From Malacoraja senta (taxonomy: Eukaryota), in the NCBI GenBank assembly GCA_038087875.1, contig CM075996.1:2110001-2174000 (forward strand): 64,000 nt of DNA. The letters are read 5' to 3'. Both the position numbers and the translations under genes were made by a program. This document shows, one piece after another, positions 5,906 through 64,000 of the stretch; position 1 is the first letter of the stretch; each line of letters begins with the position of its first letter. The notes beneath the pieces were generated by a model. The model worked only from the letters and a program-made list of their open reading frames with translations. It was not told where the DNA came from and did not search any database.

Positions 5906-6076
5906 TAAAGCTATGTCCCTAGTCATTGACATTTCCATCCCGGGAAAATGGCTGCAACTGTTTACCTGAGAGTATTTGACATACTCTATATCAGGTCTCC
6001 CCTCCACCTCCAGCATTCCAGAGAAAACGACCCAGGTTTGGTGATGAAACACATTGTGCCCTTTGTCTTTTTTCAG

Positions 6077-6828: not shown

Positions 6829-7044
6829 GCCTCGGCCCGAGACGTCACCAGAGATGCAGTCTGACCCGCTGAGATATACTCCCGCTTTATGTGTCTTATC
6901 TGTGGCCTGATCGATACCTGTTAGGCGGATTGACAGCATGTGGGTGAGAAACAGTGCTTGCTTTTGAAGCCAGCATCAACGAAAGCACATGCAGTCAGGA
7001 CTTGTTAGGTTTGTAACAAACCATCTGCAGAATGAACTTTGCGG

Positions 7045-7893: not shown

Positions 7894-8921
7894 ACAGGAC
7901 TGAATTTGTGGAATCCTCTGCCTCGGAGGGCAGTGGAGGCCTATTCACTGGATGCATTCTAAAGAGAGTTAGATAGTGCTCTTAAAGATAGCGGAATCAA
8001 GGGATATGGGGAGAAGGCAGGAACGGGGTACTGATTGTGGATGATCAGCCATGATCATATTGAATGGTGGTGCTGGCTCGAAGGGCCGAATGGCCTACTC
8101 CTGCACCCATTGTCTATGTATCTATGACTGTTTCCACGTGCCCAGTTATACACTCCAGAACTCAACTCATTTGTGGTTTCAGCGCTTATTTAATTACAGT
8201 AATTTGACTGTAAACCCATTTCCATTATCCATTTTCCATACAGCGTGTCTATGCCTGTGGAAAGCGAGCTACCCCTGCCTAAACCCATTTTAGGGTAATT
8301 TTAGATGTAGAGCGTAGAAACAGGCCCTTCAGGCCGCCATGTGTATGTCGACCATCATGTCTAAGAAATGCTGGTTTACACCGAAGATAGACACAAAAAG
8401 CTGGAGTAACCCAGCAGTTCGGGCAGCATCTCTGGAGAAAAGGAATCGGTGACGAAGGGTCTCGACCCAAAACACCAACTATTCCGTTTGTCCATTTATT
8501 ATACTTATCTATGAGTCCCATTAAGCTGCATTTTGAGGATTTGAATGCTTGTCGGGATGCTGTTTAAATGTTGTGAGTTTCTCTGCCTCCATCAGTCCAT
8601 TCTAAGTTCCAGCCCGTCACTAGGTAAAGAAAAAACCTCTCTGACCTCCTCTTTACCTCCGGTCTCTCAACTTGTATCCATGTTGTGTCAGCCACCCACA
8701 CTGTATCTGTGCACTTGATTGTAATCAGGTATCGTCTTTCGGCTGACTGGATAGCACGCTACAAAAAGGCTTTTCACTGTACCTTCATACATGTGACAAT
8801 AATAAACTTAATTGTGAAAACAACTAAACTAAACTAGAGGGGGGGGGGGAGGTTTTGTATGCCATTCCTCTTCTTTCCTGCAGTGTCAGGCTAAATGACA
8901 TGAGCTTTTTTTCTTGCCTAG

Positions 8922-9047
8922 GTCTTTGAAACCTCAGATCTCCCTGCCGGTGTGGTGAATATTCTGACTGGATCACGAGATCATCTGAGCAAAACTCTGG
9001 TTGAGCACCAGGATGTCCAAGCCATGTGGTACTTTGGCTCTGCAAAG
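8922..9047 (+). CDS. ALDH16A1: ALDH16A1 penultimate coding exon
   Basis: cctag acceptor, gtaact donor. [42 protein letters not shown] (LP.GVVN motif); 126 nt, phase 0/0. Confidence 0.93.
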
Positions 9048-14464: not shown

Positions 14465-14867
14465 AACCTTCACGTGGTCCACCCTGTTTCGACGAATGCA
14501 ATCAACCCGACGTGCACAAACAATTAGATCAAATACGGGGTTACGCCTGCGCCCGGGTGGTACTAGAAAGGGACTACACACTGTCCACGGGAACCCTGGG
14601 GGATTTCCAGGACCGCTGGGCACCGCGGGGGTTTGAGTGTATCCTGGATAAGGATCGTAATATAGTTGTTTAGTACTTTACTTAGTAATGTGTTTGTCTT
14701 GCATTATGGTGGTGGGTTTGTTTTATTGTGTTGTAAATACTATTTTAATGTTTGAATAAATATTTTTGCTTTAAAAAAAAAACCCCAGAAGAAACAAAAA
14801 AAATTAGATCAAATAGAACAAGTTGACCTATAACTTTAGGCTGTGCACGCCAAACGCAGGAAGAAGA
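14465..14867 (+). mobile_element. 5'-truncated ribozyme-headed short retroelement interrupted by a Tx1/L1-like 3' end
   Basis: TSD AGGCAGAAA at 14458-14466 and 14868-14876; (gaa)n tail. Inner insert 14536-14801 with poly(A) is flanked by duplicated AATTAGATCAAATA. Confidence 0.75.
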
Positions 14868-17023
14868 AGGCAGAAAATTGTGCCGGACATTAGCAAGCTC
14901 TTGGCTCTAACTCAATCGGTTCCCACAAGCTCCTGAACGTACTGAATCGGTCCAGTACGCTCTCTGTTTAGCATCTCGTTGAAAGACTGCATTCACCACT
15001 CCCACGGATCCACTCTAAAATATCAGCAAGTTTCTCCAATTGTTTGAGACATGGCATATGTACAAGACTGTATCAGCTTTTAAAATTGTTAAATAGATGC
15101 TATTATCATTGGCAGATGGTTCAGGGGTCAGAGAAGTGGATTTAAAATTTGGATAACTGATACAAGAGAGAGGTGACTAATATCTTATTTATGATTTGGG
15201 ATTGGTATTGGTTTATCATTGTGACGTGTATGCAGTGGAAATACTTTCTGCATCTGAAAGGTGGCAAGCCTAATCAGTCAGACCTCTTGCATGGACTCAA
15301 TGGGCATTTAGTTTGGAGATACAGCATGGAAACAGGCCCTTCGGCCCACCAGTGATCCTCGCACACTAACGATATACCACACACACACACACACACACAA
15401 ATTTTACAATTTTACCAAGCCAATTAGCCTACAAACCTGTACCTCTTTGGCGTGTGGGAGGAAACCAGAGCTCCTGGAGAAAACCCACCCGGCCACAGGG
15501 AGAACCTACAAACTCCGTGCAGGCAGCACCCATAGTCAGGATGGAACCCGGGTCTGTGGTCATGTGAGGCAGCAACTCTACCGCTGCACCACCGAGCCGC
15601 ACTTTGTTTTGAGAAAGAACAGGCAGGGCTGTGGAGGAATGGGACTGAGAGCTTGGCTTTGCAACCACCTATCATGGGGTCGAGAGTCAAGAGAGCTTTA
15701 TTGTCATGTGTCCCAGATAGGATAATGAAATTCTTGCTTGCTGCAGCACAACAGAATATGTAAACATAATACAGAACACGAGATAAAAGTTCAGTGTGTT
15801 TATAGACCATAGACCATATATATACACAATAAATAAACAGATAAAGTGTAATAGTAATAATAGACTCTTATTGTTCAGAGTTTGTTTAATAGCCTGATGG
15901 CTGTGGGGAAGCAGCTGTTCGTGAACCTGGACTTTACAGATTTCAAGCTCCTGTACTTTCTTCCCGATGGCCTCTTGTGCTGAAACAGCTCAGTCTGCAT
16001 GAGTTGCGCAAATGAACTGTGACAAACTGACAGCTAATAGTGAGTGCATCTTGGAAGTCCTCGTTGAGAAATGCTTGTTCAGTAACCACAGTGAATCATT
16101 ACTCATGATCTCTCGGGGCATAGAGCAAGTTGGAGAGGGTGCAGAGGACATTCACTTCTATGTAACCTGGGCTTGAGCTATAGGGAGAGTTCTGGTTTTA
16201 ATTTGATTTTCAAAGCATGGAAACAGCCCCTTCGGCCCAACGAGTCTTTGTTGACCGTACACAAAAATGCTGGAGAAACTCAGCGGGTGCAGCAGCATCT
16301 ATGGAGCGAAGGAAATAGGTAACGAGTCTTTGTTGACCATTGGCCACACGTTCACACTAGTTCTACTTCATCCCACTTTCTCAAACACTCCCTACACACG
16401 AGGGGCAATTTACTGCAGCCAATCATCCAACAAACCCGAAGATAGACACAAAAAGCTGGAGTAACTCAGTGGGTCAGGCAGCATCTCTGGAGAGAAGGAC
16501 TGGGTGACGTTTTGGGTTGAGACCCTTCTTCAGACTCTTGAGATGCTGCCTGACCCGCTGAGTTACTCCAGCTCTTTGCGCCTATCTTCGGTTTAAACCA
16601 ATGTCTGCAGTTCCTTCCCACAACCTACAAACCCACCCGCCTTTGGGATATGGGAGGCAACCCATGCGTTCACAGGGAGGACGTGCAAACTCCTCACAGA
16701 CAGCACCCAAGGTCAGGATCACACTTGGCAAAGTGAGGCAGTGGCTCTGCCCGCTGCACGAGAAATGTTTTCTTTGATGCGGAGAAATCTGAGGGGTGAT
16801 CTTGTACAAGATCATGGATAAAGTGAATGCTCAGTCATTTGCCAAGGGTCGATTGTCAAAGCAGAGGGCAAAGGCTTATGGTGAGAGGAGAGATTTAAGA
16901 GAGACCTCGGGGGTAACGTTTTCACTCGAGTAGTCTGTTTCTTGAATGACCTGCCAAAGGAAGCTGTAGTATCAGATCCAATTATGACTTAAATACAGAT
17001 ATATGACTAGGAAGGGTTTAGAG

Positions 17024-17230
17024 CAAGGGTTCCCAACCTGGGGTAAGTTTACCACCAGGGGGTAAATTTGTTGATTGTGGATTTGTACAAATTGTTTCTC
17101 ATTGACTGACTGTGTTTGGTTCAACCGGTATCTGTTCATCATTAGTTGTTCATAAATAAGTGAAATAACATTGTTACGTGCTGTTAAAGTTGCCAGGGGT
17201 AAACGGGACAAAAAAGGTTGGGAACCCCTG
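17024..17230. mobile_element. hAT (Charlie-like) MITE
   Basis: TIRs caagggttcccaacct and aggttgggaacccctg; 8-bp TSD GTTTAGAG / GTTTAGAT. Confidence 0.8.
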
Positions 17231-17456
17231 GTTTAGATGGACGTAGGTCAAATGTGGGCAAATGGGACTTGTCCAGTATATCAACTTGGTTGGTATTATG
17301 AAGGTGGCCTGAAGAGCTTGTTTCTGTGCTGTTTAACTCTGTCAATCCATTCCTTTCCATTCCATTAAAAATAAAGTCTACAGTGAAACTCTTTTTAATA
17401 CAATGGAAAGATTTGAAGATCTAACTTGCACCTGTTACATTCAATTAATCATTTCA

Positions 17457-18808
17457 TTTTTATTTATTTTTTTATTTTTTATTTATTAGAAGTACATTAC
17501 ATTACAACCACATACATTAGTACTCGTCACATATATCTTCTTACAATTAATGTACTCCGTTTGTTTTTTACACTAATAAAGGGAAAGGATGAGATTGAGA
17601 GAAAGAAGAAAGTGAAGGAAAAGGTGAAAGTGTAAAAAACGTGACAACAAGAAAGAACGAAGACCCTATAAGAACGAAATTAAAAACAAAAGAAAAAGAG
17701 TTAAGAAATAGACCCTAGAAAAGAAGAAGAAAGAGAAAGAGGGAAAAGAGAAAAACAAATAGTTTTTGTAAGCATCACACAAATGGGACATACCAACTCT
17801 CCAACTTTCATCCCCCCTTACCTGACCTCAGTTTTTTTAAGGTACTTTTGCACCCTATATTTGTAATAATTCTATAAATGCAGACCGCGTCAGGTGGAAG
17901 TGATCTGGTTTACCTGCCAGGAGGAGTCTTATCTCTTCTAGGTGTAATGTTTCGAACATATTTGAAATCCACATGTTTATAGTTGAAGAAGGGTCTGAAG
18001 AAGGGTTTCGGCCCGAAACGTTACCTATTTCCTTCGCTCCATAGATGCTGCTGCACCCGCTGAGTTTCTCCAGCATTTTTGTGTACCTTTGTTTATAGTT
18101 GGTATTGGAGCCTTTTTCCAAAATTTTAGGATTAGCTTTTTTCCAGTTATTAACCCATAGTCTATTAATTTCTTTTGGAACACATTTAGTTCTGGACTAT
18201 CTTCCGTTGTTCCGAAGATAATCCATTCTGCTTTGGGTATCAGTTTTATTTTAAATAATTTTGTAAAGATTTCAAAAATTTCAATCCAAAATTGTTGAAT
18301 TTTTGTACAGAAAACAAATGAGTGCGCTATAGTAGCTTCTTGAGATTGACATTTATCACAAATTGATGATACATTTGGGAAAATTTTATGGATTTTAGTT
18401 TTGGAATAATATAATCTATGTAAAATTTTAAATTGTATTAAAGTGTGTCTTACATTAATCGAACATTTATGCACGTTTAATACGTGTTCATTCCGCCTTT
18501 CCTTTGAGATTTTAATAGCTAATTCTTGTTCCCAGTCTCTTCTAATACCTTCCGTAGATGGGTATTTCTACATTTAAGATAATATTATACAAATATGATA
18601 TTAAGTTTGCTGATTCAGCTTTTATCTGCATTGCATCATCCAATACATCTGCTGGGCTTTTATAATGATCTTTTGTATATTTTTTTCAAATAGTCACATA
18701 TTTGAAAATATTTCAAATATTGATTATTTCCGAGTTTATATTTTATTTGTAATTGTTGAAATGATAATAATTTTCCAGTTTCATACAGGTCACCGAATGT
18801 TTTAATTC
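17457..18808 (-). mobile_element. 5'-truncated L1 (ORF2 C-terminus, 3' UTR, polyA); same family as 55169-57513
   Basis: HKCSINVRHTLIQFKILHRLYYSK...CDKCQSQEATIAHSFVFC zinc knuckle; poly(T) at the left end; interrupted by a pLTR insert at 17986-18089. Confidence 0.9.
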
Positions 18809-19159
18809 AATTTCTGAGCTTGGTATTTCCTCTTGTGGTATTTTTTGTACTTGTTTGAGGTGACGTCTGATTCTCCCGGACTTGATGCAAGCAATTTGTG
18901 TAATTCCCCCTATTAACGCAGGCTTGATGCTTCAATTTACATTCCTGCTCCAATCAAAGTGAATATCTGAGACTTGCGACATGAAACCATTGCGTAAGGC
19001 AACAGATCACTACAAGGACTGGTTAGTAAAGGAAACTAATACCATAAAGAAATTTCACTTGTCTTTTACAAGTATCTGTACGCATCTGGAGAATTTGAGT
19101 CATGGGAGATTGCCTGGGCAGGTGTTACTTTCTTCAAGAATAGAGGTGGCTTCAGGGAG

Positions 19160-19615
19160 AATTATCGAGGTAGTAAACACTGCCCAGTCCATCATCAGCT
19201 CTGACCTCCCTTCCATCGAGGGGATCTATCGCAGTCGCTGCCTCAAAAAGGCTGGCAGTATCATCAAGGACCCACACCATCCTGGCCACACACTCATCTC
19301 CCTGCTACCTTCAGGTAGAAGGTACAGGAGCCTGAAGACTGCAACGACCAGGTTCAGGAATAGCTACTTCCCCACAGCCATCAGGCTATTAAACCTGGCT
19401 CTGACAAAACTCTGAACATTAATAACCCATTATCTGTTATTTGCACTTTATCAGTTTATTTATTCATGTGTGTATATATTTATATAATGGTATATGGACA
19501 CACTGATCTGTTTTGTAGTCAATGCCTTCTATGTTCTGTTGTGCTGAAGCAAAGCAAGAATTTCATTGTCCTATCAGGGACACGTGACAATAAACTCACT
19601 TGAACTTGAACTTGT
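19160..19615 (+). mobile_element. Rex1/Babar-type LINE 3' end
   Basis: VVNTAQSII...RCLKKAGSIIKDPHHPGHTLISLLPSGRRYRSL..TTRFRNSYFPTAIRLLN; tail gtgacaataaa then (cttgaa)n. Confidence 0.8.
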
Positions 19616-20220
19616 GTCCAAAGTTAACTGGTGTAGACGGAGTAAATTTAAAAGATTAAAGAGGAGTTAGACTTTGGATTTTAGAGGTACAACGTGGAAA
19701 CAGGCCCACCGAGTCTGTGACAACCAGTGATCACCCTGTACAATAGCACTATCCCACACACTAGGGACAATTTACAATTTTACTAACAGCAATTAACCTA
19801 CAAACCTGTACATCTTTGGAATGTGAGAGGAAACCAGAGCACCCAGAAGAAACCCATGCGAATATGCAAATTGCTGGAGTAACCAACGAGTGAGTTAGGC
19901 AGCATCTGTGGAGGGACATCTCTGGGTCAGGATCCTTCCACAGACTGAGCTGATCTGACCCGACCCAAAACTTTGCCTATCCATTGATCTGTCTGAAGAA
20001 GGGAGCAGATCTGATGTGTTGCCTGTCCATTCCCTCCACAGATGCTGCCTGATCCGCTGAGCGACAAGATTACACCCTCTGTAGTCGCTTGTGTCTCCCT
20101 CCGTCTTGGCATGGCATTCGGCGTGGGCGTTGTAGCCCGTGGGGCCCGTTCCTGTGCTGAAATTGTTCCACGTTCTCAATGTCCGGACAACCTCACGCCT
20201 ATTTTTGTCATCTTCCCTAG

Positions 20221-20394
20221 GGGTCGAAGTTTGTCGAGTGGTCGTCGGCTGAGAATCTGAAGCGGACCTGGGTGAATTACGGTGTCCCGCGACTGTGGTG
20301 CCACTCCCGCCAGGGGTCCGGGGAGGAGTTCCTCTATCATGCAACACAGTGCAAGAACGTCTGGATCCCAATGGGGGAAATCTTTGCCAACTAG
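20221..20394 (+). CDS. ALDH16A1: ALDH16A1 terminal coding exon
   Basis: ccctag acceptor after an 11.2-kb intron. GSKFVEWSSAENLKRTWVNYGVPRLWCHSRQGSGEEFLYHATQCKNVWIPMGEIFAN then TAG at 20392-20394; NLKRTW and K..W.P.GE are typical of the ALDH16 C-terminus. Confidence 0.92.
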   Translation, partial: GSKFVEWSSAENLKRTWVNYGVPRLWCHSRQGSGEEFLYHATQCKNVWIPMGEIFAN

Positions 20395-52053: not shown

Positions 52054-54304
52054 ATTAGGAGGGAGAGATAGATCAGCCATGATTGAATAGCAGAGTAGAC
52101 GCAATGGGCCGAATGGCCTGATTCTGCTCCTGTCACTTGAGACCCTATGATGATGATAATGACCAGGTCCAGTGCTATCCAATAAGATCAGATAGGACTG
52201 CACATAAATACAATCAAGTCCAACTCGAGTGTAGTAGGTAGAGCAAAGGGGAAGATACAGAATGTAGAATAGCATTTTAGTTTGGTTTAGAGATACCGCG
52301 TGGAAACAGGCCCTTTGGCTCACCGGGTCCGTGCTGACCAAGGCAGGCGTGCCACCTTGTAGTGTAGGTCGCTGCCCGAGTGTGACCCCCCCCCCCCCCC
52401 ACTTGGACCGGCCACTCATGGGTTCCTTGAGCAGGAACGGCGTGGGTGAAATGGCAGGCGGGGATACAGACTCGGCAAGTCCGGGAAACCTAAACCCATC
52501 TCCCCACGTTCACAAACGATCACATTCCCAACCCACTCAAAACCCATCAATCTCACTAACTTTTTATTAATGTTGTTTACCAACTGTGGCCAAATTTCTT
52601 TAGTTTATTCTGAGACACATCAAAGTAACAGAATACGAATTCTTCCTTTGAATTAGGAACAAAAGCTGCCTTTCACTGCTCTGCCTTTTTGCTTAGTTGC
52701 ATTTAATATTTTGATTGCTGGCCATTCCTTCTCTTTTTCTCTCGTTCCTCTTTTCTTCCCACGTCTCTCTCTCACCCTTTTCCCCTGCCTTTCGTGTTGT
52801 TCAGTACAATGGTCCAATGGCACTCTATTGTCACATAGAGCGATACATCGTGGAAACGGGCCCTTTGGCCCTAACTTGACCACACCGACCAACATGTCCC
52901 AGCTACACTAGTCCCACCTGCCTGCGTATGGTCCATATCCCTCTAAATCTGTCCTATCCATGTACCTGTCTGAATGTTTCTTAAATGTTGCCACAACTAC
53001 CTCCTCTGGCAGCTTGTCCCATACACCCACCACCCTTTGTGTGAAAAAGTTACCCCTCAGATTCCTATTAAATCTTTTCCCCTTCACCTTAAACCTATGA
53101 CCTCTGGTCCTCGAATCCCCTACTCTGGGCAAGAGACTCTGCGCGTCTACCCGATCTATTCCCCTCATAATTTTATAGACCTCAATAAGATCACCCCTTA
53201 TCCTCCTGCGCTCCATGGAATAGAGACCCAGCCTGCTCAACCTCTCCCTATAGATCAGACCCTTGAGTCCTGGCAACATCCTCGTGAACCTTCTCTGTAC
53301 CCTTTCCATCTTGGCATCATCTTCCTCTGTCTGCTGCCTCTCTCATTAGTGATACAGCGTGGAAACTGGTCCTTCGGCCCACCGAGTCTGTGCCGACTTA
53401 TGATCACCCGTACGCTAGTTCTATCCGACACATTGGGGACAATTTACAGAAGCCAATTAACCTACAAACCTGCACGTTGTTGGAGCGTGGGAGAAAGCCG
53501 GAGCACCCGGCGAAAACCCACGCGGGTCACGGGGAGAACGTACAAACCCCGTACAGGCAGCGCCCGTAGTCAGGATCGAACCCGGGTCCCTGGTGCTGTG
53601 GGGCAGCAGCTCTACCCGCTGCACCACAGGGGGATAGGGGACTTGCCCCAGTGTCGAGGCAGGAGGCATGAGCCTCGATCTTGTCCCATGTTTTGGTCGA
53701 CTGAGGCACTAACTCTTCATCTTGCTAAGTGTCTGATAACCACGGGAGGTTTACAAGAATGATCCCAGGAATGAGTGAGTGGGTTAACCTATGATGAGCG
53801 TTTGACGGCACTGGGCCTGTACTCGTTGGAGTTTAGAAGAATGAGGGGGGGGCCTCATTGAAACTTACCGAATGGTGAAAGGCTTGGATCGAGTGGATGT
53901 GGAGAGGATGTTTCCACTAGTGGGCGAGTCCAGGACCAGAGGTCACAGCCTCAGAATTAAAGGACGTTCCTTCAGGAAGGAGACGAGGAGGAATTTCTTT
54001 AGTCAGAGTGTGATGAATCTGTGGCATTCTTTGCCGCAGAAGGCTGTGGAGGCCAAGCCAGTAGATATTTTTTAAGGCAGAGATAGTTAGATTCTTGATT
54101 AGTACGGGTGTCAGAGGTTATGGGGAGAAGGCAGGAGAATGGGGTTAGGAGGGAGAGATATAGATCAGCCATGATTGAATGGCGGAGTGGACTTGATGGT
54201 CCGAATGGCCCAATTCTTCTCCTATCACTTATGGCTTGTTTCCTTGTGTTTCCAGGAGATGTCCAGTCTTTAGTTGCGGAATATAAACCCGTGGGAATGT
54301 TGAG

Positions 54305-54373
54305 ATGAAATTTTCTCATGTACGTCCGACGAGCTCAGCAAAGAAACAGCGCGTGTTACTGAAGGAGCTGATC
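54305..54373 (+). CDS. FLT3LG: FLT3LG-like first coding exon (exon starts at 54256, ATG at 54305)
   Basis: Acceptor ttgtgtttccag, donor gtgagt at 54374. MKFSHVRPTSSAKKQRVLLKELI, phase 0, G at -3 of the ATG; joins in frame to the next exon. Confidence 0.7.
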
Positions 54374-54398
54374 GTGAGTATATATATCTCCTTTCGTT

Positions 54399-55168
54399 AG
54401 ATGTAACTCTTGGGGGGCCAATGGAATATGGGGGGACATGGGGAGATAGCAGCCATCATTGAATGGCGGACTAGACTTGATGGGCTGAATGGCCTAATTC
54501 TGCTCCTATCAATCAATCAATCAGTTTTATTCCTCACTGGCACATAAAGTGCAAGTGAAATGAATTTGCCAGCAGCGGTACAATGAGAAAGAACACACAA
54601 AAACACAATAAAAATTGAACACAAACATCCACCACCGCATTCATCACCATGGTGGAAGGCACAAAATTTGGCCAATCCTCCTCCATTTTCCCCCGTGGTC
54701 ATGTATGACCTTATGACCTCGCCTCTGATACCGTGTGCGTGGAGTCTGCACGTCCTCCCTGTGACCTCGTGGGTTTTCTCTGGGCACTCCGGTTTCCTCC
54801 CACAGACTGGCTGATGGTTAATCACCTTTTTAACGCAAGTTAATGACAAAAGTAAACGGAGGGGGGGGTGGGGGGTTTAAGGTCCACGTGAAAATCAGTG
54901 CCGGGGGGTTATGGGGAGAAGTGGGAGCAGCAGCAATAGAGAATAGACAATAGGTGCAGGAGGAGGCCATTCGGCCCTTCGAGCCAGCACCGCCATTCAA
55001 TGTGATCATGGCTGATCATCCATGCCCCTGCTCCCCGAATGGTTCATTGACGCACAGTGCAAGGCTTGGTGTTGCATGCAACCCGGTAACGTCGCACAGA
55101 ATCTTGGGCGGCACGGGTGGCGCAGCTATAGAGTTGCTGCCTCACAGCGCCGGTGACCCGGGTTCCAT
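54399..55168 (+). repeat. 770-bp direct repeat, copy 1
   Basis: Matches 57514-58283 at a constant offset of 3115; the only difference I found is A55128 versus G58243. Confidence 0.93.
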
Positions 55169-57513
55169 ACAAAAATTTCAACTGGGAGAGAATTTTATTT
55201 TATGGATTAAGTTACTATATAACAAACCTACAGCTAGAATACTTACTAATAACATATTATCCTCGAAATTTCAACTATCAAGGGGAAATAGACAAGGATG
55301 CTCATTATCACCACAGCTGTTTGCTCTCATTATTGAACCGCTAGCAGAAAAAATTAGAATACACCCTGATATTCATGGATATAATACTAAAGACTCATAT
55401 AATAAAATATCTTTATACGCGGATGATATATTATTGTATATTACAAAACCTCAAATCACTATACCAAATATATTAAATTTAATTGAAGACTTCGGATCTT
55501 TTTCTGGATATAGAATAAATTGGAATAAAAGTGAAATTATGTCAATAAAACCGAAAGATTCAACACATCTTTTAAAATTCCCTTTTAAAATAGCTACAGA
55601 AAAATTTAAATATTTGGGAATCGAAATTACCAGAGCATATCAAGGTATGCTCAGGGCAAATTTTGACCCCCTACTTAATAAACTGAATACATTAATTAAA
55701 TTCTGGAAAACGCTTCCGATGTCTTTAATAGGCCGAATAAACGCAATAAAAATGATCTTTTTACCACAAATTTTATACCTATTTCAATCAATTCCTATAT
55801 ACTTACCTAAGAAGTTTTTTAAAAAACTCGACTCAGATATCACTAATTTTATATGGGACTATAAATCACATAGAATACAAAAAACTCATCTGAATAAATC
55901 TAAAGTATTGGGGGGTCTAGCACTACCCAATTTTATGTATTATTATTGGTCAGTAAATATTAAAAACATGATTCAACTGATGGATAACTCCGCCCAGCAA
56001 GTAGACTGGATTGTAATGGAGAAAGAGGATTGCTCCTCTAGAAACATTGGAGCGATCCTCCTCTCTCCAATGAAATTGAATAACATAAACTATAATAAGA
56101 ACCCAATTATTCATAGTACAATCCGTATTTGGAAACAAATAAAACAAAATTTAAAATTAAGAAACTTATCACTTTTATTACCTATAGTCAATAACCCTTC
56201 GTTTAGTCCTTCTATTATAGATAAAGCTTATACACAATGGGATAGACTAGGAATTAAAACGCTTGGTGACTTGTATGAAACTGGAAAATTACTTTCATTT
56301 CAACAATTACAAATAAAATATAAACTCGGAAATAATCAATATTTTAAATACTTTCAAATATGCGACTATTTGAAAAAATATATAAAAGATCATCATAATA
56401 ACCCAGCAGATGTACTGGACGAGGCAATGCAGACAAAAGCGGAATCAGCAAACTTAATATCATATTTGTACAATATTATCTTAAATGTACAAATACCATC
56501 TACGGAGGGTATCAGAAGAGACTGGGAACAAGAGTTAGCCATTAAAATTTCAAAGGAAAGTTGGAATGAATACTTATTAAAAGTACATAAATGCTCGATT
56601 AATGTAAGACACACTTTAATACAATTTAAAATTTTACATAGATTATATTATTCGAAAACTAAAATTCATAAAATTTTCCCAAACGTATCATCTATTTGTG
56701 ATAAATGTCAATCCCAAGAAGCAACTATAGCGCACTCATTTGTCTTCTGTACAAAAATTCAAAAATTTTGGAATGAAATTTTTGAAATCTTTACAAAGTT
56801 ATTTAAAACAAGACTGATACCCAAAGCAGAATGGATTATCTTCGGAATAACGGAAGATGATCCAGAACTAAATGTGTTTCAAAAGAAATTAATGGATTAT
56901 GGGTTAATAACTGGAAAAAAGCTAATTCTAAAATTTTGGAAGAAGGCTCCAATACCAACTATAAATATGTGGATTTCAAATATGTTTGAAACACTACACC
57001 TTGAAGAGATAAGACTCCTCCTAGCAGGTAAACCAGATCACTTCCACCTGACGTGGTCTGCATTTATAGAATTATTACAAACATAGGGTGCAAAAGTACT
57101 TTAAAAAAATAAAAAATTGAGGTCGGGTAAGGGGGGATGATAGTTGAAGAGTTGGTATGTCCTATTTACGTGATGCTCAAAAAAAAACATTTGTTTTTCT
57201 TTTTTTCTCTTTCTCTTTTCTTTTCTTGGGGCCTATTTCTTAACTCTTTTTCTTTCTGTTTTTAATTTCGCTCTCATAGGGTCTTCGTCCTTTTTTGTTG
57301 TTACATTTTCTACACTTTTCTACACTTGCACTTTTTCCTTCACTTTCTTCTCTCTTTCAATCTTTTCTTTCTTTAGTGTAAAAAAATAAATAAAGGGAGT
57401 ACATTAATTGTAAGAAGATATAAATGACGAGTATTAATGTATGTGGCTGTGATGTAATGTACTTCTAATAAATAAAAATAAAAAAAAATAAAAAATAAAA
57501 AATAAAAAAAAAA
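55169..57513 (+). mobile_element. Young 5'-truncated L1: uninterrupted ORF2 (RT to zinc knuckle), 3' UTR, poly(A)
   Basis: RGNRQGCSLSP, SLYADDILLY, FKYLG, GGLALP, CDKC..HSFVFC; TAG at 57084-57086; AATAAA at 57467 followed by an A-rich tail. Confidence 0.95.
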
Positions 57514-58283
57514 AGATGTAACTCTTGGGGGGCCAATGGAATATGGGGGGACATGGGGAGATAGCAGCCATCATTGAATGGCGGACTAGACTTGATGGGC
57601 TGAATGGCCTAATTCTGCTCCTATCAATCAATCAATCAGTTTTATTCCTCACTGGCACATAAAGTGCAAGTGAAATGAATTTGCCAGCAGCGGTACAATG
57701 AGAAAGAACACACAAAAACACAATAAAAATTGAACACAAACATCCACCACCGCATTCATCACCATGGTGGAAGGCACAAAATTTGGCCAATCCTCCTCCA
57801 TTTTCCCCCGTGGTCATGTATGACCTTATGACCTCGCCTCTGATACCGTGTGCGTGGAGTCTGCACGTCCTCCCTGTGACCTCGTGGGTTTTCTCTGGGC
57901 ACTCCGGTTTCCTCCCACAGACTGGCTGATGGTTAATCACCTTTTTAACGCAAGTTAATGACAAAAGTAAACGGAGGGGGGGGTGGGGGGTTTAAGGTCC
58001 ACGTGAAAATCAGTGCCGGGGGGTTATGGGGAGAAGTGGGAGCAGCAGCAATAGAGAATAGACAATAGGTGCAGGAGGAGGCCATTCGGCCCTTCGAGCC
58101 AGCACCGCCATTCAATGTGATCATGGCTGATCATCCATGCCCCTGCTCCCCGAATGGTTCATTGACGCACAGTGCAAGGCTTGGTGTTGCATGCAACCCG
58201 GTAACGTCGCACAGAATCTTGGGCGGCACGGGTGGCGCAGCTGTAGAGTTGCTGCCTCACAGCGCCGGTGACCCGGGTTCCAT
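57514..58283 (+). repeat. 770-bp direct repeat, copy 2
   Basis: Starts right after the L1 poly(A) and continues into the rest of the V-SINE that is cut off in copy 1. Confidence 0.93.
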
Positions 58284-58438
58284 CCCGGCCACGGGTGCTG
58301 TCTGTCTGTACGGAGTTTGTACCTTCTCCCAGTGACCCGCGTGGGGTTTTCTCCGGGGTTTCTCCGGTTTCCTCCCGCACTCCAAAGACGTGCAGGTTTT
58401 CTGTAGGTTAATTGGCGTGGTGTGTATGTGTAAATTGT

Positions 58439-58480
<42 letters not shown>

Positions 58481-59022
58481 GGATAGTGTTAGTGTGCGGG
58501 GATCGCTGGTCGGTGTGGACCCGGTGGGCCGAAGGGCCTGTTTCCGCGCTGTATCTCTGAAAACTAAAACCCTCACCTAGGCAGTACATAAATGTCACCA
58601 CGTTTCTGGTGACTTCAAATTCACAACTATTTCAGCAAACAGTCCCGTCTTTTGTCTGAAGAAGGGTTTCGGCCCGAAACGTTGCCTATTTCCTTCGCTC
58701 CATAGATGCTGCTGCACCCGCTGAGTTTCTCCAGCATTTTTGTCTACCATCTTTTGCCTGCCCCCACCCCTCCTCCTCCCTGTCCCCTTTGTTCTTGACA
58801 GCCCTCTGCCGGGTCCCTCTTCATTTTTCTACCTCTGTGTCCCTCCTCGCTCTCGACAGTCCACCTCGGGGATGGAGGGGGGGGGGGGGGGCTAGCATGG
58901 ACCCGATGGGCTGAACGGCCCCGATTTAGGTGTAAGTTGAACCTCTCCGCCCGTTCCTTACTGTTGCTTCTGAAGAGTGAGCAGAAGTTTCTTTCCAATA
59001 AGTTTATTTTCTTTTGCCCCAG

Positions 59023-59127
59023 GCGACATTCCTTGTTTTTGTATTGTTGGCGGACAGCAGTGGAGCGTGTAACTTGGTTTGGGGTAACCCCCTGACGAAC
59101 TCCTATAACGAATCCATCGAGCAGCTG
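59023..59127 (+). CDS. FLT3LG: FLT3LG-like exon: signal-peptide core, first Cys, helix A
   Basis: Acceptor ttttcttttgccccag, donor gtgagt. ATFLVFVLLADSSGACNLVWGNPLTNSYNESIEQL, compared with human [37 protein letters not shown] (recalled). Confidence 0.85.
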
Positions 59128-61399
59128 GTGAGTTGGTGACGGCTTATGGGGGGGGGGGGGGGCGTTGGAGGTTGGGGGAAGCTGCTCGGGAAATGGCCAG
59201 ACAATAGACAATAGGTGCAGGAGTAGGCCATTTGGCCCTTCGAGCCAGTTAATTAGATTAAGATTAGTTAATGATTTCCCCTTTGTGTGCTTCCACTACG
59301 GGTGCTGTCTGTACGGAGTTTGTACGTTCTTCCCGTGACCTGCGTGGGTTTTCTCCAGGAGCACTGGTTTCCTCCCACACTCTAAAGACGTACAGGTTTG
59401 TAGGCTAATTGGCTTCGGTAAAATTATAAACTGTCCCTAGTGTGTGTTGGACAGTGTTAGTGTGCGGGGATCGCTGGTCGGCGTGGACTCAGTGGGCAGA
59501 AAGGCCTGTTTCCGCGCTGTATCTCTGAAGTCTAAAGTAAAATATTTGAAGTTAAATTGAAGAATTCAAAATCAACCTCAGTTTTCATTTGTTTGGTAGA
59601 CAAAAATGCTGGAGAAACTCAGCGGGTGAGGCAGCATCTATGGAGCGAAGGAAATAGACAACAGGTGCAGGAGTAGGCCATTCGGCCCTGCGAGCCAGCA
59701 CCGCCATTCAATGTGATCATGGCTGATCATCCCCAATCAGTACCCCGTTCCTGCCTTCTTCCCATATCCCCTGACTCCGCTATTTTTAAGAGCCCTATCT
59801 AGCTCTCTCTTGAAAGCATCCAGAGAACCTGCCTCCACCGCCCTCTGAGGCAGAGAATTCCACAGACTCACTGCTCTCTGTGAGAAAAAGTGTTTCCTCG
59901 TCTCCGTTCTAAATGGCTTACCCCTTATTCTTAAACTGTGTGTGGCCCCTGATTCTGGACTCCCCCAACATCGGGAACATGTTTCCTGCCTCTAGCGTGT
60001 CCAAGCCCTTAACAATCTTAGACAGCGATAGAAGCCTCTTCCAGTCTACACTGACTCACTTTCAGCTTTCCTTGGCCAACCAGCACCTGCAGTTCCTTGT
60101 ATCTGACTGAGGAGGTAGTTGGGGCTGGTACTGTAATTGGGCAGCACGCAGGTGGAGTTGCTGCCTCACAGCGCCAGAGACCCGGGTTCGATCCTGACCA
60201 CGGGCGCTTCCTGTACGGAGTTTGCACGTTCTCCCCGTGACCTGCGCGGGTTTTCTCCGGGTGCTCCGGTTTCCCCCCACACTCCAAAGACGTGCGGGTT
60301 TGAAGTTTAATTGGCTTCTCGGGTTGTACGTTGGCCCGGTCGGTGGCCGCGTGCATTTTTCTCCGGGAAAAGACTCTGACAATGTTCTATACTTCTCTCA
60401 GCTCATGAGGGGATAATATCACGAGGGGGAATAGAGAGGGTAAATGAACAGAGTCTTTGTCCCAGGGTACGGCAATCAAGAACCAGGGGACATGGGATTA
60501 AGGTTGGAGGGGGAAAGATTTGATAGGCACCAGAGGGGTAACATTTTTCCCACAGAGGGTGGTGGGTGTATGGAACGAGCTGCCAGAGGAGGTAGTTGAG
60601 GCAGGGACTATCCCAACGTTCAAGAAAGGTACATGGATAGGATGGGTTTTGGAGGGATATGGACCAAACGCGGGCAGGTGGGACTAGTGCAGCTGGGGCA
60701 TGTTGGTCGGTGTGGGCAAGTTTGGGCCGAAGGGCCTGTTTCCACGCTGTATCACTCTATGATTCGCAGAATCACAGCCGACAAGGTCTGTTTCCGTGCT
60801 CTGTCACTTTATGACTCTATTCATAGGAGATGAAAGGTTTCTGAGTCACCGGTTTGTAGAGTAATCTCTGCTTTTGTATCAGTTGGTTAAAGGTGAGAAG
60901 TGAAAGGAATGGAAGGGAGAGTTTGACCACAGCTGTGATGTGTGTGTGTGTGTCTGTGTGTTTTTGAAGAGTCAAGAGTGTTTCATTGTCCTGTGTCCCA
61001 GATAGAACAATGAAATTCTTACTTGCAGCAGCTCAACACAATGTGTAAACATAGTACACTGTAATATACACATGGTGAATCTGTGGAACTCATTGCCACA
61101 GACGGCTGTGGAGGCCACAAGTCAGTGGATATTTTTAAGGCAGAGATAGATAGATTCTCGATTAGTACGGGTGTCAGGGGTTATGGGGAGAAGGCAGGAG
61201 AATGGGGTTGGGAGGGAGAGATAGATCAGCCATGAAAGAATGGCGGAGTAGACTTGATGGGCTGAATGGCCTAATTCTGCTCCTATCACTTTAGTTTAGA
61301 GATGCTTATGACCTAATACCCACATATATTATATATATTTTTTAATGTTGATCACTAATATTTTGTGTGTTTTTATATATATATATATAATATATATAC

Positions 61400-61451
61400 A
61401 TATATATATATAATATACACACACACACACACACACACAAATATAAATATA

Positions 61452-61489
<38 letters not shown>

Positions 61490-61569
61490 TATATTTATAT
61501 TTGTGTGTGTGTGTGTGTGTGTATATTATATATATATATAAAAAGTTTTTTCTCACCTCAATCTTAAAT

Positions 61570-61615
<46 letters not shown>

Positions 61616-61640
61616 ATTTAAGATTGAGGTGAGAAAAAAC
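61400..61640. repeat. Two adjacent (AT)n-centred palindromes
   Basis: (AC)11...(AT)n...(GT)10 at ~61400-61539, and a perfect 96-bp palindrome at 61545-61640. Confidence 0.85.
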
Positions 61641-61985
61641 GTTTTCACCCGGAGAGTTGTGAATTTATGGAATTCCCTGCCACAGAGGGCAGTGGAGGCC
61701 AAGTCACTGGATGGATTTAAGAGAGAGTTAGATAGAGCTCTAGGGGCTAGTGGAGTCAAGGGATATGGGGAGAAGGCAGGCATGGGTTATTGATAGGGAA
61801 CGATCAGCCATGATCACAATGAATGGCGGTGCTGGCTCGAAGGGCCGAATGGCCTCCTCCTGCACCTATTTTCCATGTAATATCTATGTATGTAATCTAT
61901 TTTTACACACACAAAGTATCAGCAATCAACATTAAGAAACCAATGGTGCTCAATTTAAATCATTATTTTTTCTCTTTACCTGCAG

Positions 61986-62045
61986 AGAAACATTCTTCCC
62001 ACTGACTACAATCTCACGGTGTACCTACAGAATTCCACTGGAATG
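61986..62045 (+). CDS. FLT3LG: FLT3LG-like small exon
   Basis: Acceptor ttctctttacctgcag, donor gtaaat. RNILPTDYNLTVYLQNSTGM, compared with human SDYLLQDYPVTVASNLQD (L..DY..TV); 60 nt, phase 0/0. Confidence 0.85.
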
Positions 62046-62946
62046 GTAAATCACAATTCCCTGTTACACAGTTAATGGTTCTGGTTCATTATCCCGTGGT
62101 AAACTTTGTCTGCGTGTGATGCAGTCTCACCGTCCCGTACAGGAATGCGATCGAGCTGCACACAAGTGCCACATGTGGGTGTAAAGAGGAAAAACACCAG
62201 CAATTATTCGAAGGGTTTCGGCCCGAAACGTTACCTATTTCCTTCGCTCCATAGATGCTGCTGCACCCGCTGAGTTTCTCCAGCATTTTTGTGTACATTC
62301 CACCCAAAATGTTGGGGCGGCGGAGAATTTGCTGCCTCAAGCCCCTGTCCCACTTTCACCACCTAATTGGCGACCTCTGCCGAGTTCGCCCTTGACCCAT
62401 ACTCGCAGCATGGACGCCACGAGGTCCTAGGAGGTCTTCGTAACTCTTCCTCGTGCTCGTGAGTGGTCTCCGCGTACTCGTGGCCTCAAGTGGGTCGTGG
62501 CGTTTTTTCCAGCCTGATACTAAAAATGTCCACGAGTAAAAAAAAAAAAAAAAGGTCAGCATGGAAAAAATTGATACTTTTTACTCGTAGGTAGGTCGCA
62601 GATAGTCGTGGGTCGGTAACTGGCCCGAGAAAAAAAAATGACTCGTAGCTAGTCGTAGTTGGTCTTAGTGTTAAAGAAGGAACTGCAGATGCTGGAAAAT
62701 CGAAGGTACACAAGAATGCTGGAAAAACTCAGCGGGTGCAGCAGCATCTATGGAGCGAAGGAAATGGGCAACGTTTCCTTCGCTCCATGCAGAGTTGAAC
62801 AATCTCCACTATAGGAAATAGGCAACGTTTTGGGCCAAAACCCTTCCGGGTTTCGTCCCGAAACGTTGCCTATTTCCTTCGCTCCTGCACCCGCTGAGTT
62901 ACTCCAGCATTTTTGTGTCCCCAGTAGCTTCGGTGTGGAAAGCCAG

Positions 62947-63079
62947 GCATCTGCACAATAATCTATCAATCCCTGGCTTTACAAATACACAATGATCTGG
63001 CCTCACTCACTCTATGGGCTGTGAGGCCAGATCATTGTGTATTTGTAAAGCAGGGATTGATAGATTATTGTGCAGATGC
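62947..63079. repeat. Long inverted repeat (59-bp stem, 14-nt loop)
   Basis: 62947-63006 pairs with 63021-63079, with one bulged G. Confidence 0.88.
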
Positions 63080-63331
63080 TGGTTTACACCGAAGGTGGAC
63101 ACAAAAATGCTGGAGTAACTCAGCGGGACAGGCAGCGTTTCTGGAGAGAAGGAATGGGTCGAGAGTAATATTTGAAATTCGAGAAATTGAATTGATATTC
63201 ATACCGCCGGGCTGGTAGGTGCCCAAACGAAATATGAAGTACTGTTCCTCCGATTTGTGTTTGGCCTCGCTCTGACAATGGAGGAACTCACCCCCCCCCC
63301 CCCCCTCCTCTCTTGTGTTGTGTTTCCACAG

Positions 63332-63475
63332 GACAGTTGCTGTCTGGATCTACAAGCCTTGTTATCGCTGAACCGATCGTTGGGACACCTCCACCGGAAC
63401 TCCGTGGTTCCGCTCCAATCTCTCGTCACCATCGTCATTAAGGAGATACAGCTCTTCGATGATTGCCCAGTCAAG
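63332..63475 (+). CDS. FLT3LG: FLT3LG-like 48-codon exon (helices B and C); gene continues beyond the window
   Basis: Acceptor tgtttccacag, donor gtgagt. DSCCLDLQALLSLNRSLGHLHRNSVVPLQSLVTIVIKEIQLFDDCPVK aligns without gaps to human [48 protein letters not shown], with C4, EI38-39 and C45 in register. Confidence 0.87.
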
Positions 63476-64000
63476 GTGAGTCTTCCAAGTGGGAGTTAAC
63501 TGTTGAGGAAGGAACTGCAGGTGCTGGTTTCGATCGAAGGGAAGACACAAAAAATGCCGGAGTAACTCAGCGGGACAGGCAGCCCTCTCTGGAGAGAAGG
63601 AACGGATGACGTTTCGGGTCGAGACCCAGTCTGAAGAAGGGTCTCGACCCGAAAACGTCGCCCATTCCTTCTCTCCAGAGAGGCTGCCCGTCCCGCTGAG
63701 TTACTCCGGCATTTTGTGTCTGAGAGTTTACTGTAATTGTCTGTTTATTGTTTTCCTTCATCCATCCATGTCCATTGCCAAATATCACCCCCCTCCCCCC
63801 CCCCACCCCCACACTAACTGTATAGCCCCCTCTCTGGACCTACTTTCAATGTCAACTTTAGTTGGCCCTCTGGTCCAATCTGTGACACGAGGAACTGGGG
63901 GAGCACTTTTAAAATGTTTTCATATTTTGCTTGGGCAGCAGTATGATTATGAATTACTCTAACTTCAAGTAACCCTTGCTTTCTCTCTCTCTCTGACTCT

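What the first reader, a model, noticed from the sequence alone, without database searches (positions are those of the whole stretch)
54256..63475. Hidden FLT3 ligand-like cytokine gene in a cartilaginous-fish-type genome
Seen: four exons (69, 105, 60 and 144 coding nt), all phase 0 with canonical splice sites, give MKFSHVRPTSSAKKQRVLLKELI|ATFLVFVLLADSSGACNLVWGNPLTNSYNESIEQL|RNILPTDYNLTVYLQNSTGM|DSCCLDLQALLSLNRSLGHLHRNSVVPLQSLVTIVIKEIQLFDDCPVK. Known (recalled): human FLT3LG lies directly downstream of ALDH16A1 on the same strand, before RPL13A; its matching exons encode 11, 37, 18 and 48 aa; Cys4, Cys44 and Cys85 fall at equivalent positions; the N-terminal loop HSPISSDF (here GNPLTNSY) binds the receptor. 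Inference: a very divergent FLT3LG ortholog that similarity searches would easily miss, implying the FLT3-FLT3L dendritic-cell/haematopoietic axis dates to early jawed vertebrates. I cannot check whether it is already annotated.
Basis: partly seen in the sequence, partly recalled or inferred. Interest (0 to 1): 0.95.

Follow-up and report, generated by a model that had tools for sequence, protein, structure and literature searches.

The report
Skate FLT3 ligand gene, correctly spotted
The four exons are real and form the front half of a skate's FLT3 ligand gene, a blood-cell growth factor; the same gene is already predicted, though left unnamed, in other sharks and rays, so this is a sound but ordinary ortholog.

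Summary
Observation confirmed. The four exons sit at the stated coordinates, all phase 0 with AG/GT sites. They are exons 1-4 of a 7-exon, 410-aa gene. Exons 5-7 lie within 6 kb past the window end.

Interpretation supported: this is the FLT3LG ortholog of a skate.
- The closest database proteins are RefSeq models from 14 chondrichthyan species, none named FLT3 ligand.
- Of the 29 further hits that I scanned, 24 pass Pfam Flt3_lig's own cut-off, as does the nearest model P0001.
- The spliced window protein scores 112.7 bits against a profile of 20 bony-vertebrate FLT3LG-family proteins. The best of 2000 shuffles scores 13.1.
- An AlphaFold model of the Leucoraja ortholog matches human FLT3L best: Z 15.0-16.9, against SCF 11.1-12.3 and CSF-1 9.8-11.0.
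- All six FLT3L cysteines align.
- ALDH16A1 lies upstream on the same strand. RPL13A/RPS11 are not adjacent.

Novelty is modest. Profile methods find the gene, and a 2018 review already says flt3l exists in elephant shark. Transcription, dimerisation and FLT3 binding were not tested.

The parts
54305..54373 (+). FLT3LG-like exon 1: start codon plus 23 codons, forming the n-region of the signal peptide
   Evidence: ATG at 54305, with an in-frame stop upstream at 54284-54286. Donor GTGAGT. The peptide MKFSHV... is conserved at the N-terminus of 13 of 14 chondrichthyan species' models, and as M-[KN]-x-x-H-[AVG] in lungfish, coelacanth, salamander, Xenopus and one of two named turtles; the other turtle (Carettochelys) reads MTWRYA.
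59023..59127 (+). Exon 2: hydrophobic core of the signal peptide, first cysteine, N-terminal loop GNPLTNSY, start of helix A
   Evidence: AG/GT sites, phase 0. tblastn to P0001: E 6e-5, 57% identity. The loop aligns with human HSPISSDF.
61986..62045 (+). Exon 3: end of helix A and a beta strand (LPTDYNLTVYL)
   Evidence: AG/GT sites, phase 0. tblastn: E 3e-5, 85% identity. The motif LPTDYNLTV is invariant in the 7 batoid rows.
63332..63475 (+). Exon 4: helices B and C, the CC doublet (second C = human Cys44) and DDC (= human Cys85)
   Evidence: AG/GT sites, phase 0. tblastn: E 4e-18, 81% identity. Single copy in the genome.
63476..64000 (+). Start of intron 4; the gene runs on beyond the window end
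   Evidence: Three more exons follow, given here in window coordinates continued past 64000.
- Exon 5: 66357-66498 (G000:C20:2176357-2176498). Helix D and 4 cysteines.
- Exon 6: 67742-68364 (C20:2177742-2178364). Ser/Thr/Pro/Asn-rich stalk, TM helix, RKRRRQ.
- Exon 7: 69465-69551 plus TGA (C20:2179465-2179554). Cytoplasmic tail.
All have AG/GT sites and the joined CDS is 1230 nt, 410 codons, with no internal stop.
673..20391 (+). Last seven coding exons of ALDH16A1, the upstream neighbour on the same strand
   Evidence: tblastn of the Mobula hypostoma ALDH16A1 protein (P0065, residues 454-826) gives 7 ordered hits: 673-774, 2377-2535, 2942-3184, 4961-5164, 6074-6265, 8922-9047 and 20221-20391. 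Identity is 68-95%.

Best explanation
This is the single-copy FLT3 ligand (FLT3LG) gene of a skate; the tree places the window protein in the Rajiformes clade.

The gene has seven exons and encodes a 410-residue type I membrane glycoprotein with these parts:
- A signal peptide with an unusually long n-region (exon 1 plus the start of exon 2).
- A ~135-residue short-chain four-helix-bundle cytokine domain (exons 2-5). It keeps the six cysteines that form the three disulfides of human FLT3L and adds one extra cysteine pair.
- A ~180-residue Ser/Thr/Pro/Asn-rich, heavily glycosylatable stalk, followed by a TM helix (both in exon 6).
- A short basic cytoplasmic tail (exons 6-7).

By inference from the mammalian protein, it should form a non-covalent head-to-head homodimer. 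It should bridge two FLT3 receptors through the N-terminal loop/helix A region. It should act either membrane-tethered on stromal cells or after shedding, supporting FLT3-positive haematopoietic and lymphoid cells.

Shown here: gene structure, family membership, fold, cysteine pattern, membrane topology signals, upstream synteny and single copy.
Inferred only: transcription in this species, dimerisation, FLT3 binding and cell targets.
For: Gene model:
- Seven exons with canonical sites and an open 1230-nt CDS.

Orthologs:
- All 7 hits to the P0001 domain carry Pfam PF02947.
- P0001 scores 41.5 bits against Flt3_lig (cut-off 25), covering profile positions 8-130 of 131. No SCF or CSF-1 family appears at E <= 10.

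Wider family search:
- A profile of the 7 batoid rows, run against 1.84 billion representatives, gives 32 hits at E <= 1e-3.
- Of the 29 newly scanned hits, 28 match Flt3_lig at E <= 0.01 and 24 of those exceed the cut-off. The only other family seen is a sub-threshold Endomucin hit on one row.

The window's own spliced protein:
- Against an HMM of the 20 bony-vertebrate rows it scores 112.7 bits, E 2.3e-33. The best of 2000 shuffles scores 13.1 bits.

Fold:
- AlphaFold2 of the Leucoraja ortholog (75% identical to the window protein in the domain) gives pLDDT of about 86-96 over most of the domain (residues ~51-170), falling to 64-78 at its start.
- The Foldseek top 10 rows are all human FLT3L: E 2.7e-6 to 3.5e-5, TM-score normalised to the target 0.76-0.84. 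SCF comes at about 1e-3 and CSF-1 at about 4e-3.
- VIA-align gives FLT3L Z 15.0-16.9 (128-130 residues aligned, rmsd 2.0-3.0), SCF 11.1-12.3 and CSF-1 9.8-11.0.

Cysteines and topology:
- Cys 39, 82, 123, 131, 166 and 171 align with the six cysteines of the human chain. They are invariant or at least 90% conserved over 34 rows.
- The window protein has the same six, plus Cys81 and Cys161.
- There is a hydrophobic stretch at ~357-375 and 14 N-x-S/T sequons.

Phylogeny and copy number:
- The window protein sits inside the skate clade (100/100 support). All 15 chondrichthyan rows form one clade (100/99). The window's end branch is short, 0.055.
- There is one locus in the 1.94-Gb genome: 4 exon matches, all on C20, out of 27 candidates scored.

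Synteny and literature:
- ALDH16A1 ends at 20391 on the same strand.
- The flt3 receptor is reported as expressed in bamboo shark (passages read).
Against: - No RNA evidence for this species.
- Pfam itself could not be run on the window's spliced protein. Single exon peptides gave 0 families at E <= 10. Pfam membership therefore rests on the orthologs plus my local profile.
- That local profile was built from rows chosen by their match to the batoid profile, so it is partly circular.
- 4 of 29 scanned rows fall below Pfam's cut-off and 1 (Heterodontus, P0013) has no hit.
- The last ~10 codons read in a different frame from the orthologs' tails. A 1-nt G-run difference explains it.
- The 3' synteny is not kept. 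The only Ribosomal_L13 matches are on contig C1. RPS11 lies 3.74 Mb away on the opposite strand.
- 34 kb of repeat-rich DNA separates the gene from ALDH16A1.
- Presence of FLT3 in this genome was not tested.
Confidence: 0.93

Rival explanations
1. It is a paralogous class III RTK ligand (KITLG/SCF, CSF1 or IL34 lineage) rather than FLT3LG. It would signal through KIT or CSF1R.
For: SCF and CSF-1 share the fold and also appear in the structure searches. Foldseek gives E of about 1e-3 to 1e-2. VIA-align gives Z 9.8-12.3. Identity to human FLT3L is only 21-23%.
Against: - No SCF or CSF-1 Pfam family appears at E <= 10 on P0001.
- All 28 Pfam-positive rows found by the batoid profile are Flt3_lig.
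- FLT3L stands about 3-4.5 Z units above the best SCF row.
- The six-cysteine pattern is FLT3L's.
- ALDH16A1 is the upstream neighbour.
- No tree with KITLG or CSF1 outgroups was built, because no such sequences were in hand.
Confidence: 0.02
2. In this species the gene is a decaying or silent copy (a pseudogene in the making), not a working cytokine gene.
For: - The C-terminal tail is frame-shifted by one G relative to orthologs. Frame 0 gives ...EQWVREAEEQKVT*. Frame +1 gives SERRRSRR*, which matches the orthologs' SERRRSRS*.
- No RNA support was obtained.
- A reverse-transcriptase element sits in intron 1.
Against: - All seven exons are open with canonical splice sites.
- All conserved cysteines are kept.
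- The window's end branch in the tree (0.055) is about as short as those of Amblyraja (0.045) and Leucoraja (0.047).
- The shift touches only the last ~10 residues, lies in a G run and could be an assembly error.
- It is the only copy in the genome.
Confidence: 0.04
3. It is a true FLT3LG ortholog whose function has shifted in elasmobranchs. It would work as a mucin-like, membrane-bound adhesion or presentation molecule, with weak or no classical soluble cytokine activity.
For: - The stalk is about 180 residues with S 17%, T 13%, P 11% and N 9%, and the protein has 14 sequons. In the bony-vertebrate rows, total lengths of 205-298 aa in 19 of 20 rows leave room for only a short stalk.
- One Pristiophorus isoform was even auto-named 'serine-rich adhesin for platelets-like'.
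- There is an extra cysteine pair.
Against: - The cytokine domain is the best-conserved part of the protein. The skates are 74-76% identical to the window protein there, and 54-59% for the other batoids.
- The model has high confidence over most of the domain.
- A Pristis isoform skips most of the stalk (P0005), which suggests the head is the functional unit.
- Membrane-bound and shed forms coexist for mammalian FLT3L (recalled knowledge).
Confidence: 0.1

Closest known systems
Human FLT3 ligand (FLT3LG; PDB 1ETE, 3QS7, 3QS9, 7QDP; Pfam Flt3_lig PF02947)
   Same: - Short-chain four-helix bundle with two beta strands. The Leucoraja ortholog aligns over 128-130 of ~131 residues at rmsd 2.0-3.0, Z 15.0-16.9.
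- All six cysteines are in register.
- The N-terminal loop is at the same position.
- Type I membrane precursor.
- ALDH16A1 lies upstream. The human gene order is recalled. It is indirectly supported by PDB chain 7qwq_O, an 'RPL13a' chain that carries an FLT3L-like N-terminus.
   Different: - Only 21-23% identity. Pairwise phmmer gives E 0.16.
- The stalk is about 180 residues rather than short.
- There are two extra cysteines (81, 161).
- The signal peptide has a long conserved n-region, MKFSHV..., absent from the mammal-like rows.
- RPL13A and RPS11 are not adjacent.
RefSeq models in other cartilaginous fishes, for example LOC116966779 (Amblyraja radiata), LOC129713973 (Leucoraja erinacea), LOC144611413 (Rhinoraja longicauda), LOC119956575 (Scyliorhinus canicula) and LOC103189443 (Callorhinchus milii)
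   Same: - Direct orthologs: 74-76% identical to the three skates in the cytokine domain and 68-77% overall.
- Same exon-coded blocks.
- Same N-terminal exon in 13 of 14 species.
- They form one clade with the window protein.
   Different: - None is named FLT3 ligand. All are 'uncharacterized protein', and one isoform is called 'serine-rich adhesin for platelets-like'.
- No protein containing the window's exon 4 at 100% identity was found in the 5.8-billion-protein collection. This species' copy therefore appears unannotated there.
- The window copy has the 1-nt tail difference.
Stem cell factor (KITLG) and CSF-1
   Same: Same fold class, dimeric class III RTK ligands with membrane-anchored precursors. 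Structural matches are Z 9.8-12.3.
   Different: Lower structural scores, 8-18% identity, a different cysteine pattern, and no Pfam SCF or CSF-1 match.

Membership tests
FLT3 ligand (Pfam Flt3_lig, PF02947) | Sequence match to the family profile above its curated cut-off | tested here: met
   Orthologs: P0001 scores 41.5 bits against the cut-off of 25. 24 of 29 further family rows exceed the cut-off.
The window's own spliced protein could not be sent to Pfam. Against my HMM of 20 bony-vertebrate Flt3_lig rows it scores 112.7 bits, and the best of 2000 shuffles scores 13.1. Single exon peptides alone give 0 families.
FLT3 ligand (Pfam Flt3_lig, PF02947) | Short-chain four-helix-bundle fold closest to solved FLT3L | tested here: met
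   Tested on the Leucoraja ortholog P0003, which is 75% identical to the window protein in the domain. pLDDT is about 86-96 over residues ~51-170. The Foldseek top 10 rows are all FLT3L. VIA-align gives Z 15.0-16.9, against SCF 11.1-12.3 and CSF-1 9.8-11.0.
FLT3 ligand (Pfam Flt3_lig, PF02947) | Six cysteines in the positions of the three intramolecular disulfides of human FLT3L | tested here: met
   C39, C82, C123, C131, C166 and C171 align to the six cysteines of chain 7nbi_A. They are invariant or at least 90% conserved in 34 rows. The same positions occur in the window protein. The disulfide pairing itself is recalled, not tested.
FLT3 ligand (Pfam Flt3_lig, PF02947) | Type I membrane precursor: signal peptide, ectodomain, single TM, short cytoplasmic tail | tested here: met
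   Hydropathy peaks lie at residues ~15-42 and ~357-375, and RKRRRQ follows the TM. The model has helices at 12-34 and 350-385 in P0003.
FLT3 ligand (Pfam Flt3_lig, PF02947) | Conserved gene neighbourhood (ALDH16A1 upstream; RPL13A and RPS11 downstream in human, recalled) | tested here: inconclusive
   ALDH16A1 is upstream on the same strand and ends at 20391.
Downstream, the 79 kb examined holds only retroelement domains among ORFs of at least 95 aa and no RPL13A-hosted snoRNA. The only Ribosomal_L13 matches are on C1. RPS11 with SNORD35 lies at C20:5917335-5920721 (-), 3.74 Mb away.
FLT3 ligand (Pfam Flt3_lig, PF02947) | Non-covalent homodimer | not tested
   Complex prediction was never run. 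The queue was full, and hand-ins 64 and 70 were not sent on. The tool was then declared unavailable.
FLT3 ligand (Pfam Flt3_lig, PF02947) | Binds and activates the FLT3 receptor | not testable with these tools
   No FLT3 sequence was in hand, and presence of FLT3 in this genome was not tested. flt3 is reported in bamboo shark cells (passages read).
FLT3 ligand (Pfam Flt3_lig, PF02947) | Transcribed and spliced as modelled | not tested
Stem cell factor / CSF-1 families (Pfam SCF, CSF-1) | Sequence match to the family profile | tested here: not met
   Neither family appears at E <= 10 for P0001, nor at E <= 0.01 for 29 related rows.

The most novel reading that the evidence does not exclude
Cartilaginous-fish FLT3L may be built differently from the mammalian protein in ways that matter.
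- It has a ~180-residue mucin-like stalk and a fourth cysteine pair.
- It has a deeply conserved cytosolic-side N-terminal motif (M-[KN]-x-x-H-[AVG]), seen from chimaera to salamander, Xenopus and one of two named turtles but lost in mammals.

Together these could make it mainly a stromal, membrane-presented ligand. flt3 is reported as a B-cell marker in bamboo shark. The ancestral FLT3 axis may therefore have served lymphoid, B-lineage development rather than dendritic cells.
Probability: 0.15. Interest if true: 0.5.

Novelty: new member of a known kind. Interest (0 to 1): 0.22.

Why it matters
This gives a complete, checked gene model for FLT3 ligand in a skate. It also shows that the 14 chondrichthyan RefSeq models seen here, all unnamed or misnamed, are FLT3LG orthologs. 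That is a concrete annotation fix.

With the ligand identified, the FLT3/FLT3L pair can be tested directly in cartilaginous fishes through recombinant ligand, receptor binding and culture of FLT3-positive cells.

It does not change the picture of when the axis arose. The receptor is already placed in the jawed-vertebrate repertoire (passages read). A 2018 review already states that flt3l exists in elephant shark and coelacanth.

Tried and rejected
- Pfam on the four exon peptides separately: 0 families at E <= 10. The pieces are too short to be informative.
- RNA support: the look-up of sequencing runs on exon 6 listed 2 runs of one study, holding 0.93 and 0.91 of the words. Their kind is unknown, and no RNA holder is listed.
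I made no retry, so the junctions remain untested.
Nothing was folded.
- The genome search does not accept an alignment for this genome. I repeated the search with protein P0003.
- RPL13A downstream:
  - The whole-genome Ribosomal_L13 search gave 2 matches, both on C1.
  - ORFs of at least 95 aa from 20.4 kb to 143 kb showed only RVT_1, Exo_endo_phos, ALKBH8_N and a sub-threshold GDSL lipase hit. That is 187 of 216 listed ORFs scanned; 6 more that span locus borders were skipped before listing.
  - Rfam over 120 kb gave only SNORD35, inside RPS11.
  - 86 minus-strand ORFs next to RPS11 gave Ribosomal_S17_N and a C2H2 finger, and no L13.
  - These are weak tests for short exons.
- Literature:
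  - 'flt3 ligand' + 'cartilaginous fish': 3 papers.
  - 'flt3lg' + 'shark': 6 papers, none relevant by title or abstract.
  - 'flt3' + 'elephant shark': 9 papers.
  - A six-term OR search was not discriminating.
  - 'flt3l' + 'shark': 96 papers, of which the 15 listed were irrelevant by title or abstract.
  - I found no paper that characterises an elasmobranch FLT3L.
  - The 2012 paper that the 2018 review cites for elephant shark flt3l has 0 occurrences of 'flt3' in its main text, and its 4 supplements could not be read. The primary source of that statement is therefore unverified.
- Earlier notes of this scan: none for this genome. One unrelated arthropod note came up by words.

Full report
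**Observation**

Their lengths are 69, 105, 60 and 144 nt. Exons 2-4 have AG acceptors, all four have GT donors, and all are in phase 0. An in-frame stop lies 18 nt upstream of the ATG.

**The gene is real and continues past the window**

- The window is G000:C20:2110001-2174000 of a 1.94-Gb genome.
- Searching exon 4 against longer proteins gave one hit, P0001. This is a 432-aa RefSeq model, 'uncharacterized protein LOC144611413 [Rhinoraja longicauda]', 81% identical, with Pfam PF02947 precomputed.
- I ran tblastn of P0001 against the window plus 79 kb fetched downstream. It hit exons 2, 3 and 4, then three more exons in order.
- After reading the boundaries, the downstream exons are 66357-66498, 67742-68364 and 69465-69551 plus TGA, in window coordinates continued. 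These correspond to C20:2176357-2179554.
- All seven exons have canonical splice sites. The joined CDS is 1230 nt, 410 codons, with no internal stop.

**Exon 1**

P0001 has a different 5' end. The other batoid models begin MKF[SY]HV...KELI/F, like the window. So do the shark and chimaera models, giving 13 of 14 chondrichthyan species.

A related start occurs in other lineages: MNWCHA, MNFHHA, MNVCHA, MNFCHG and MNWRHA in salamander, lungfish, coelacanth, Xenopus and the turtle Pangshura. A second turtle, Carettochelys, reads MTWRYA. The mammal-like rows lack the motif.

**Family**

- P0001 matches Pfam Flt3_lig at E 1.9e-10, 41.5 bits (cut-off 25), over profile positions 8-130 of 131. No SCF or CSF-1 family appears at E <= 10.
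- A second search with the P0001 domain found 7 proteins among 180 candidates. All 7 carry PF02947 and all are 'uncharacterized protein': Amblyraja, Leucoraja, Pristis (two isoforms), Hemitrygon, Hypanus and Rhinoraja itself.
- A profile of these 7 rows, run over 1.84 billion representative proteins, gave 32 hits at E <= 1e-3.
- Of the 29 new hits, 28 match Flt3_lig at E <= 0.01 and 24 exceed the cut-off. One, P0013, has no match. The only other family is a sub-threshold Endomucin hit on one row.
- I looked up names for 20 of the 32.
  - Narcine, Pristiophorus, Scyliorhinus, Rhincodon, Heptranchias, Heterodontus, Mustelus and Callorhinchus are 'uncharacterized'. One Pristiophorus isoform is 'serine-rich adhesin for platelets-like'.
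  - Latimeria, Protopterus and Acipenser are 'uncharacterized'.

**The window's own protein**

The spliced protein could not be sent to the profile libraries, so I tested it locally. I built an HMM from the 20 bony-vertebrate rows (P0017-P0036). It scores the window protein at 112.7 bits, E 2.3e-33, aligning residues 17-189. The best of 2000 shuffles of its domain scores 13.1 bits.

One caveat applies. Those 20 rows were selected by the batoid profile. However, they match Pfam independently.

**Fold**

- AlphaFold2 of the Leucoraja ortholog with a 34-row alignment gives pLDDT of about 86-96 over most of the domain (residues ~51-170) and 64-78 at its start. The stalk is low-confidence and the TM helix is confident.
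- Foldseek against the PDB puts human FLT3L chains in the top 10 rows: E 2.7e-6 to 3.5e-5, TM-score normalised to the target 0.76-0.84. SCF first appears at rank 16 (E about 1e-3) and CSF-1 at rank 24 (about 4e-3).
- VIA-align gives FLT3L Z 15.0-16.9, SCF 11.1-12.3 and CSF-1 9.8-11.0.

**Cysteines and the receptor loop**

- phmmer of the Leucoraja protein against PDB sequences finds FLT3L only at E 0.16.
- That alignment nonetheless puts C39, C82, C123, C131, C166 and C171 on the six cysteines of the human chain. It also puts GKSMTNSY on HS-PISSDF.
- The window protein has cysteines at the same six positions, plus 81 and 161.
- The batoid profile finds FLT3L chains at E about 2e-6.

**Orthology**

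- In a maximum-likelihood tree of 35 rows, the window protein sits in the skate clade with 100/100 support. Two second isoforms, P0005 and P0014, were left out.
- All 15 chondrichthyan rows form one clade with 100/99 support. The window's end branch is 0.055.
- The tree has no outgroup.
- The genome holds a single locus: 4 exon matches, all at C20:2169020-2178373, with 27 candidates scored.

**Neighbourhood**

- The last seven coding exons of ALDH16A1 lie at 673-20391 on the same strand. They are 34 kb upstream of exon 1. The long ORFs between them carry only reverse-transcriptase domains.
- I found no RPL13A downstream.
- RPS11, with SNORD35 in an intron, lies 3.74 Mb away on the opposite strand of the same contig.

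**Mechanism (inferred)**

The protein looks like a signal peptide, a FLT3L-type four-helix head with three conserved disulfides, a long mucin-like stalk, a TM helix and a short tail. The stalk spans residues 178-355, with S 17%, T 13%, P 11% and N 9%. The whole protein has 14 sequons.

By analogy with mammalian FLT3L, it should dimerise and cross-link FLT3. Transcription could not be tested either.

**Novelty**

Modest. The gene family is known, and models of the ortholog exist in 14 other cartilaginous fishes. A 2018 review states that flt3l is present in Latimeria and elephant shark (passage read). However, the paper it cites has no 'flt3' in its main text, and its supplements were unreadable.

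The receptor is treated as part of the jawed-vertebrate repertoire (passages read). It is reported as expressed in bamboo shark cells (passages read).

What is useful is the naming fix and a complete model for this species.

Noticed in passing
Beyond the window: G000:C20:2179465-2179554 (L002:6465-6554), exon 7: The cytoplasmic tail reads ...EQWVREAEEQKVT* in frame. The +1 frame after TGG reads SERRRSRR*, which matches the orthologs' SERRRSRS* or SERQQSRS*. A one-base difference in a G run explains it; this could be a real change or an assembly error.
   Followed up: partly
window 54305-54373 (exon 1) and the N-termini of P0002-P0027: The N-terminal motif M-[KN]-x-x-H-[AVG] is conserved from chimaera, sharks and rays to lungfish, coelacanth, salamander, Xenopus and the turtle Pangshura. 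Carettochelys reads MTWRYA, and the mammal-like rows read MTVLAPAW. This is unusually deep conservation for the n-region of a signal peptide.
   Followed up: no
window 54954-57083 (+), intron 1: A 710-aa open frame with a reverse-transcriptase domain (RVT_1, E 3.7e-18) sits in intron 1. It lies between two copies of the same set of ORFs, at 54520-55015 and 57635-58130, which suggests an element with long direct terminal repeats.
   Followed up: no
window 45025-46659 (+) and 48329-50425 (+): The ALDH16A1-FLT3LG spacer holds more retroelement ORFs. One is a 545-aa frame with RVT_1 (E 3.8e-36). The other is a 699-aa frame next to a run of N, which I did not scan.
   Followed up: partly
PDB chain 7qwq_O (not in the window): A 500-residue chain deposited as 'ribosomal protein L13a' has an FLT3L-like sequence at residues 28-164. 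It was the top hit of the batoid profile (E 2.3e-7). This looks like an FLT3LG-RPL13A read-through sequence used for a ribosome model.
   Followed up: no
G000:C20:5917335-5920721 (-) (L011, L012): RPS11 was detected through Ribosomal_S17 and S17_N exons, with a SNORD35 snoRNA at C20:5920390-5920476 in an intron, as in mammals. A C2H2 zinc-finger ORF lies about 9 kb further along. No RPL13A was seen beside it.
   Followed up: partly
P0009 (Pristiophorus japonicus isoform X3): This FLT3LG ortholog is auto-named 'serine-rich adhesin for platelets-like', evidently because of the Ser/Thr-rich stalk. It appears to be a misannotation.
   Followed up: no
P0004/P0005 (Pristis pectinata): Isoform X4 lacks about 130 residues of the stalk but keeps the cytokine head, TM and tail. 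The stalk length may therefore be regulated by splicing within the exon-6 region.
   Followed up: no
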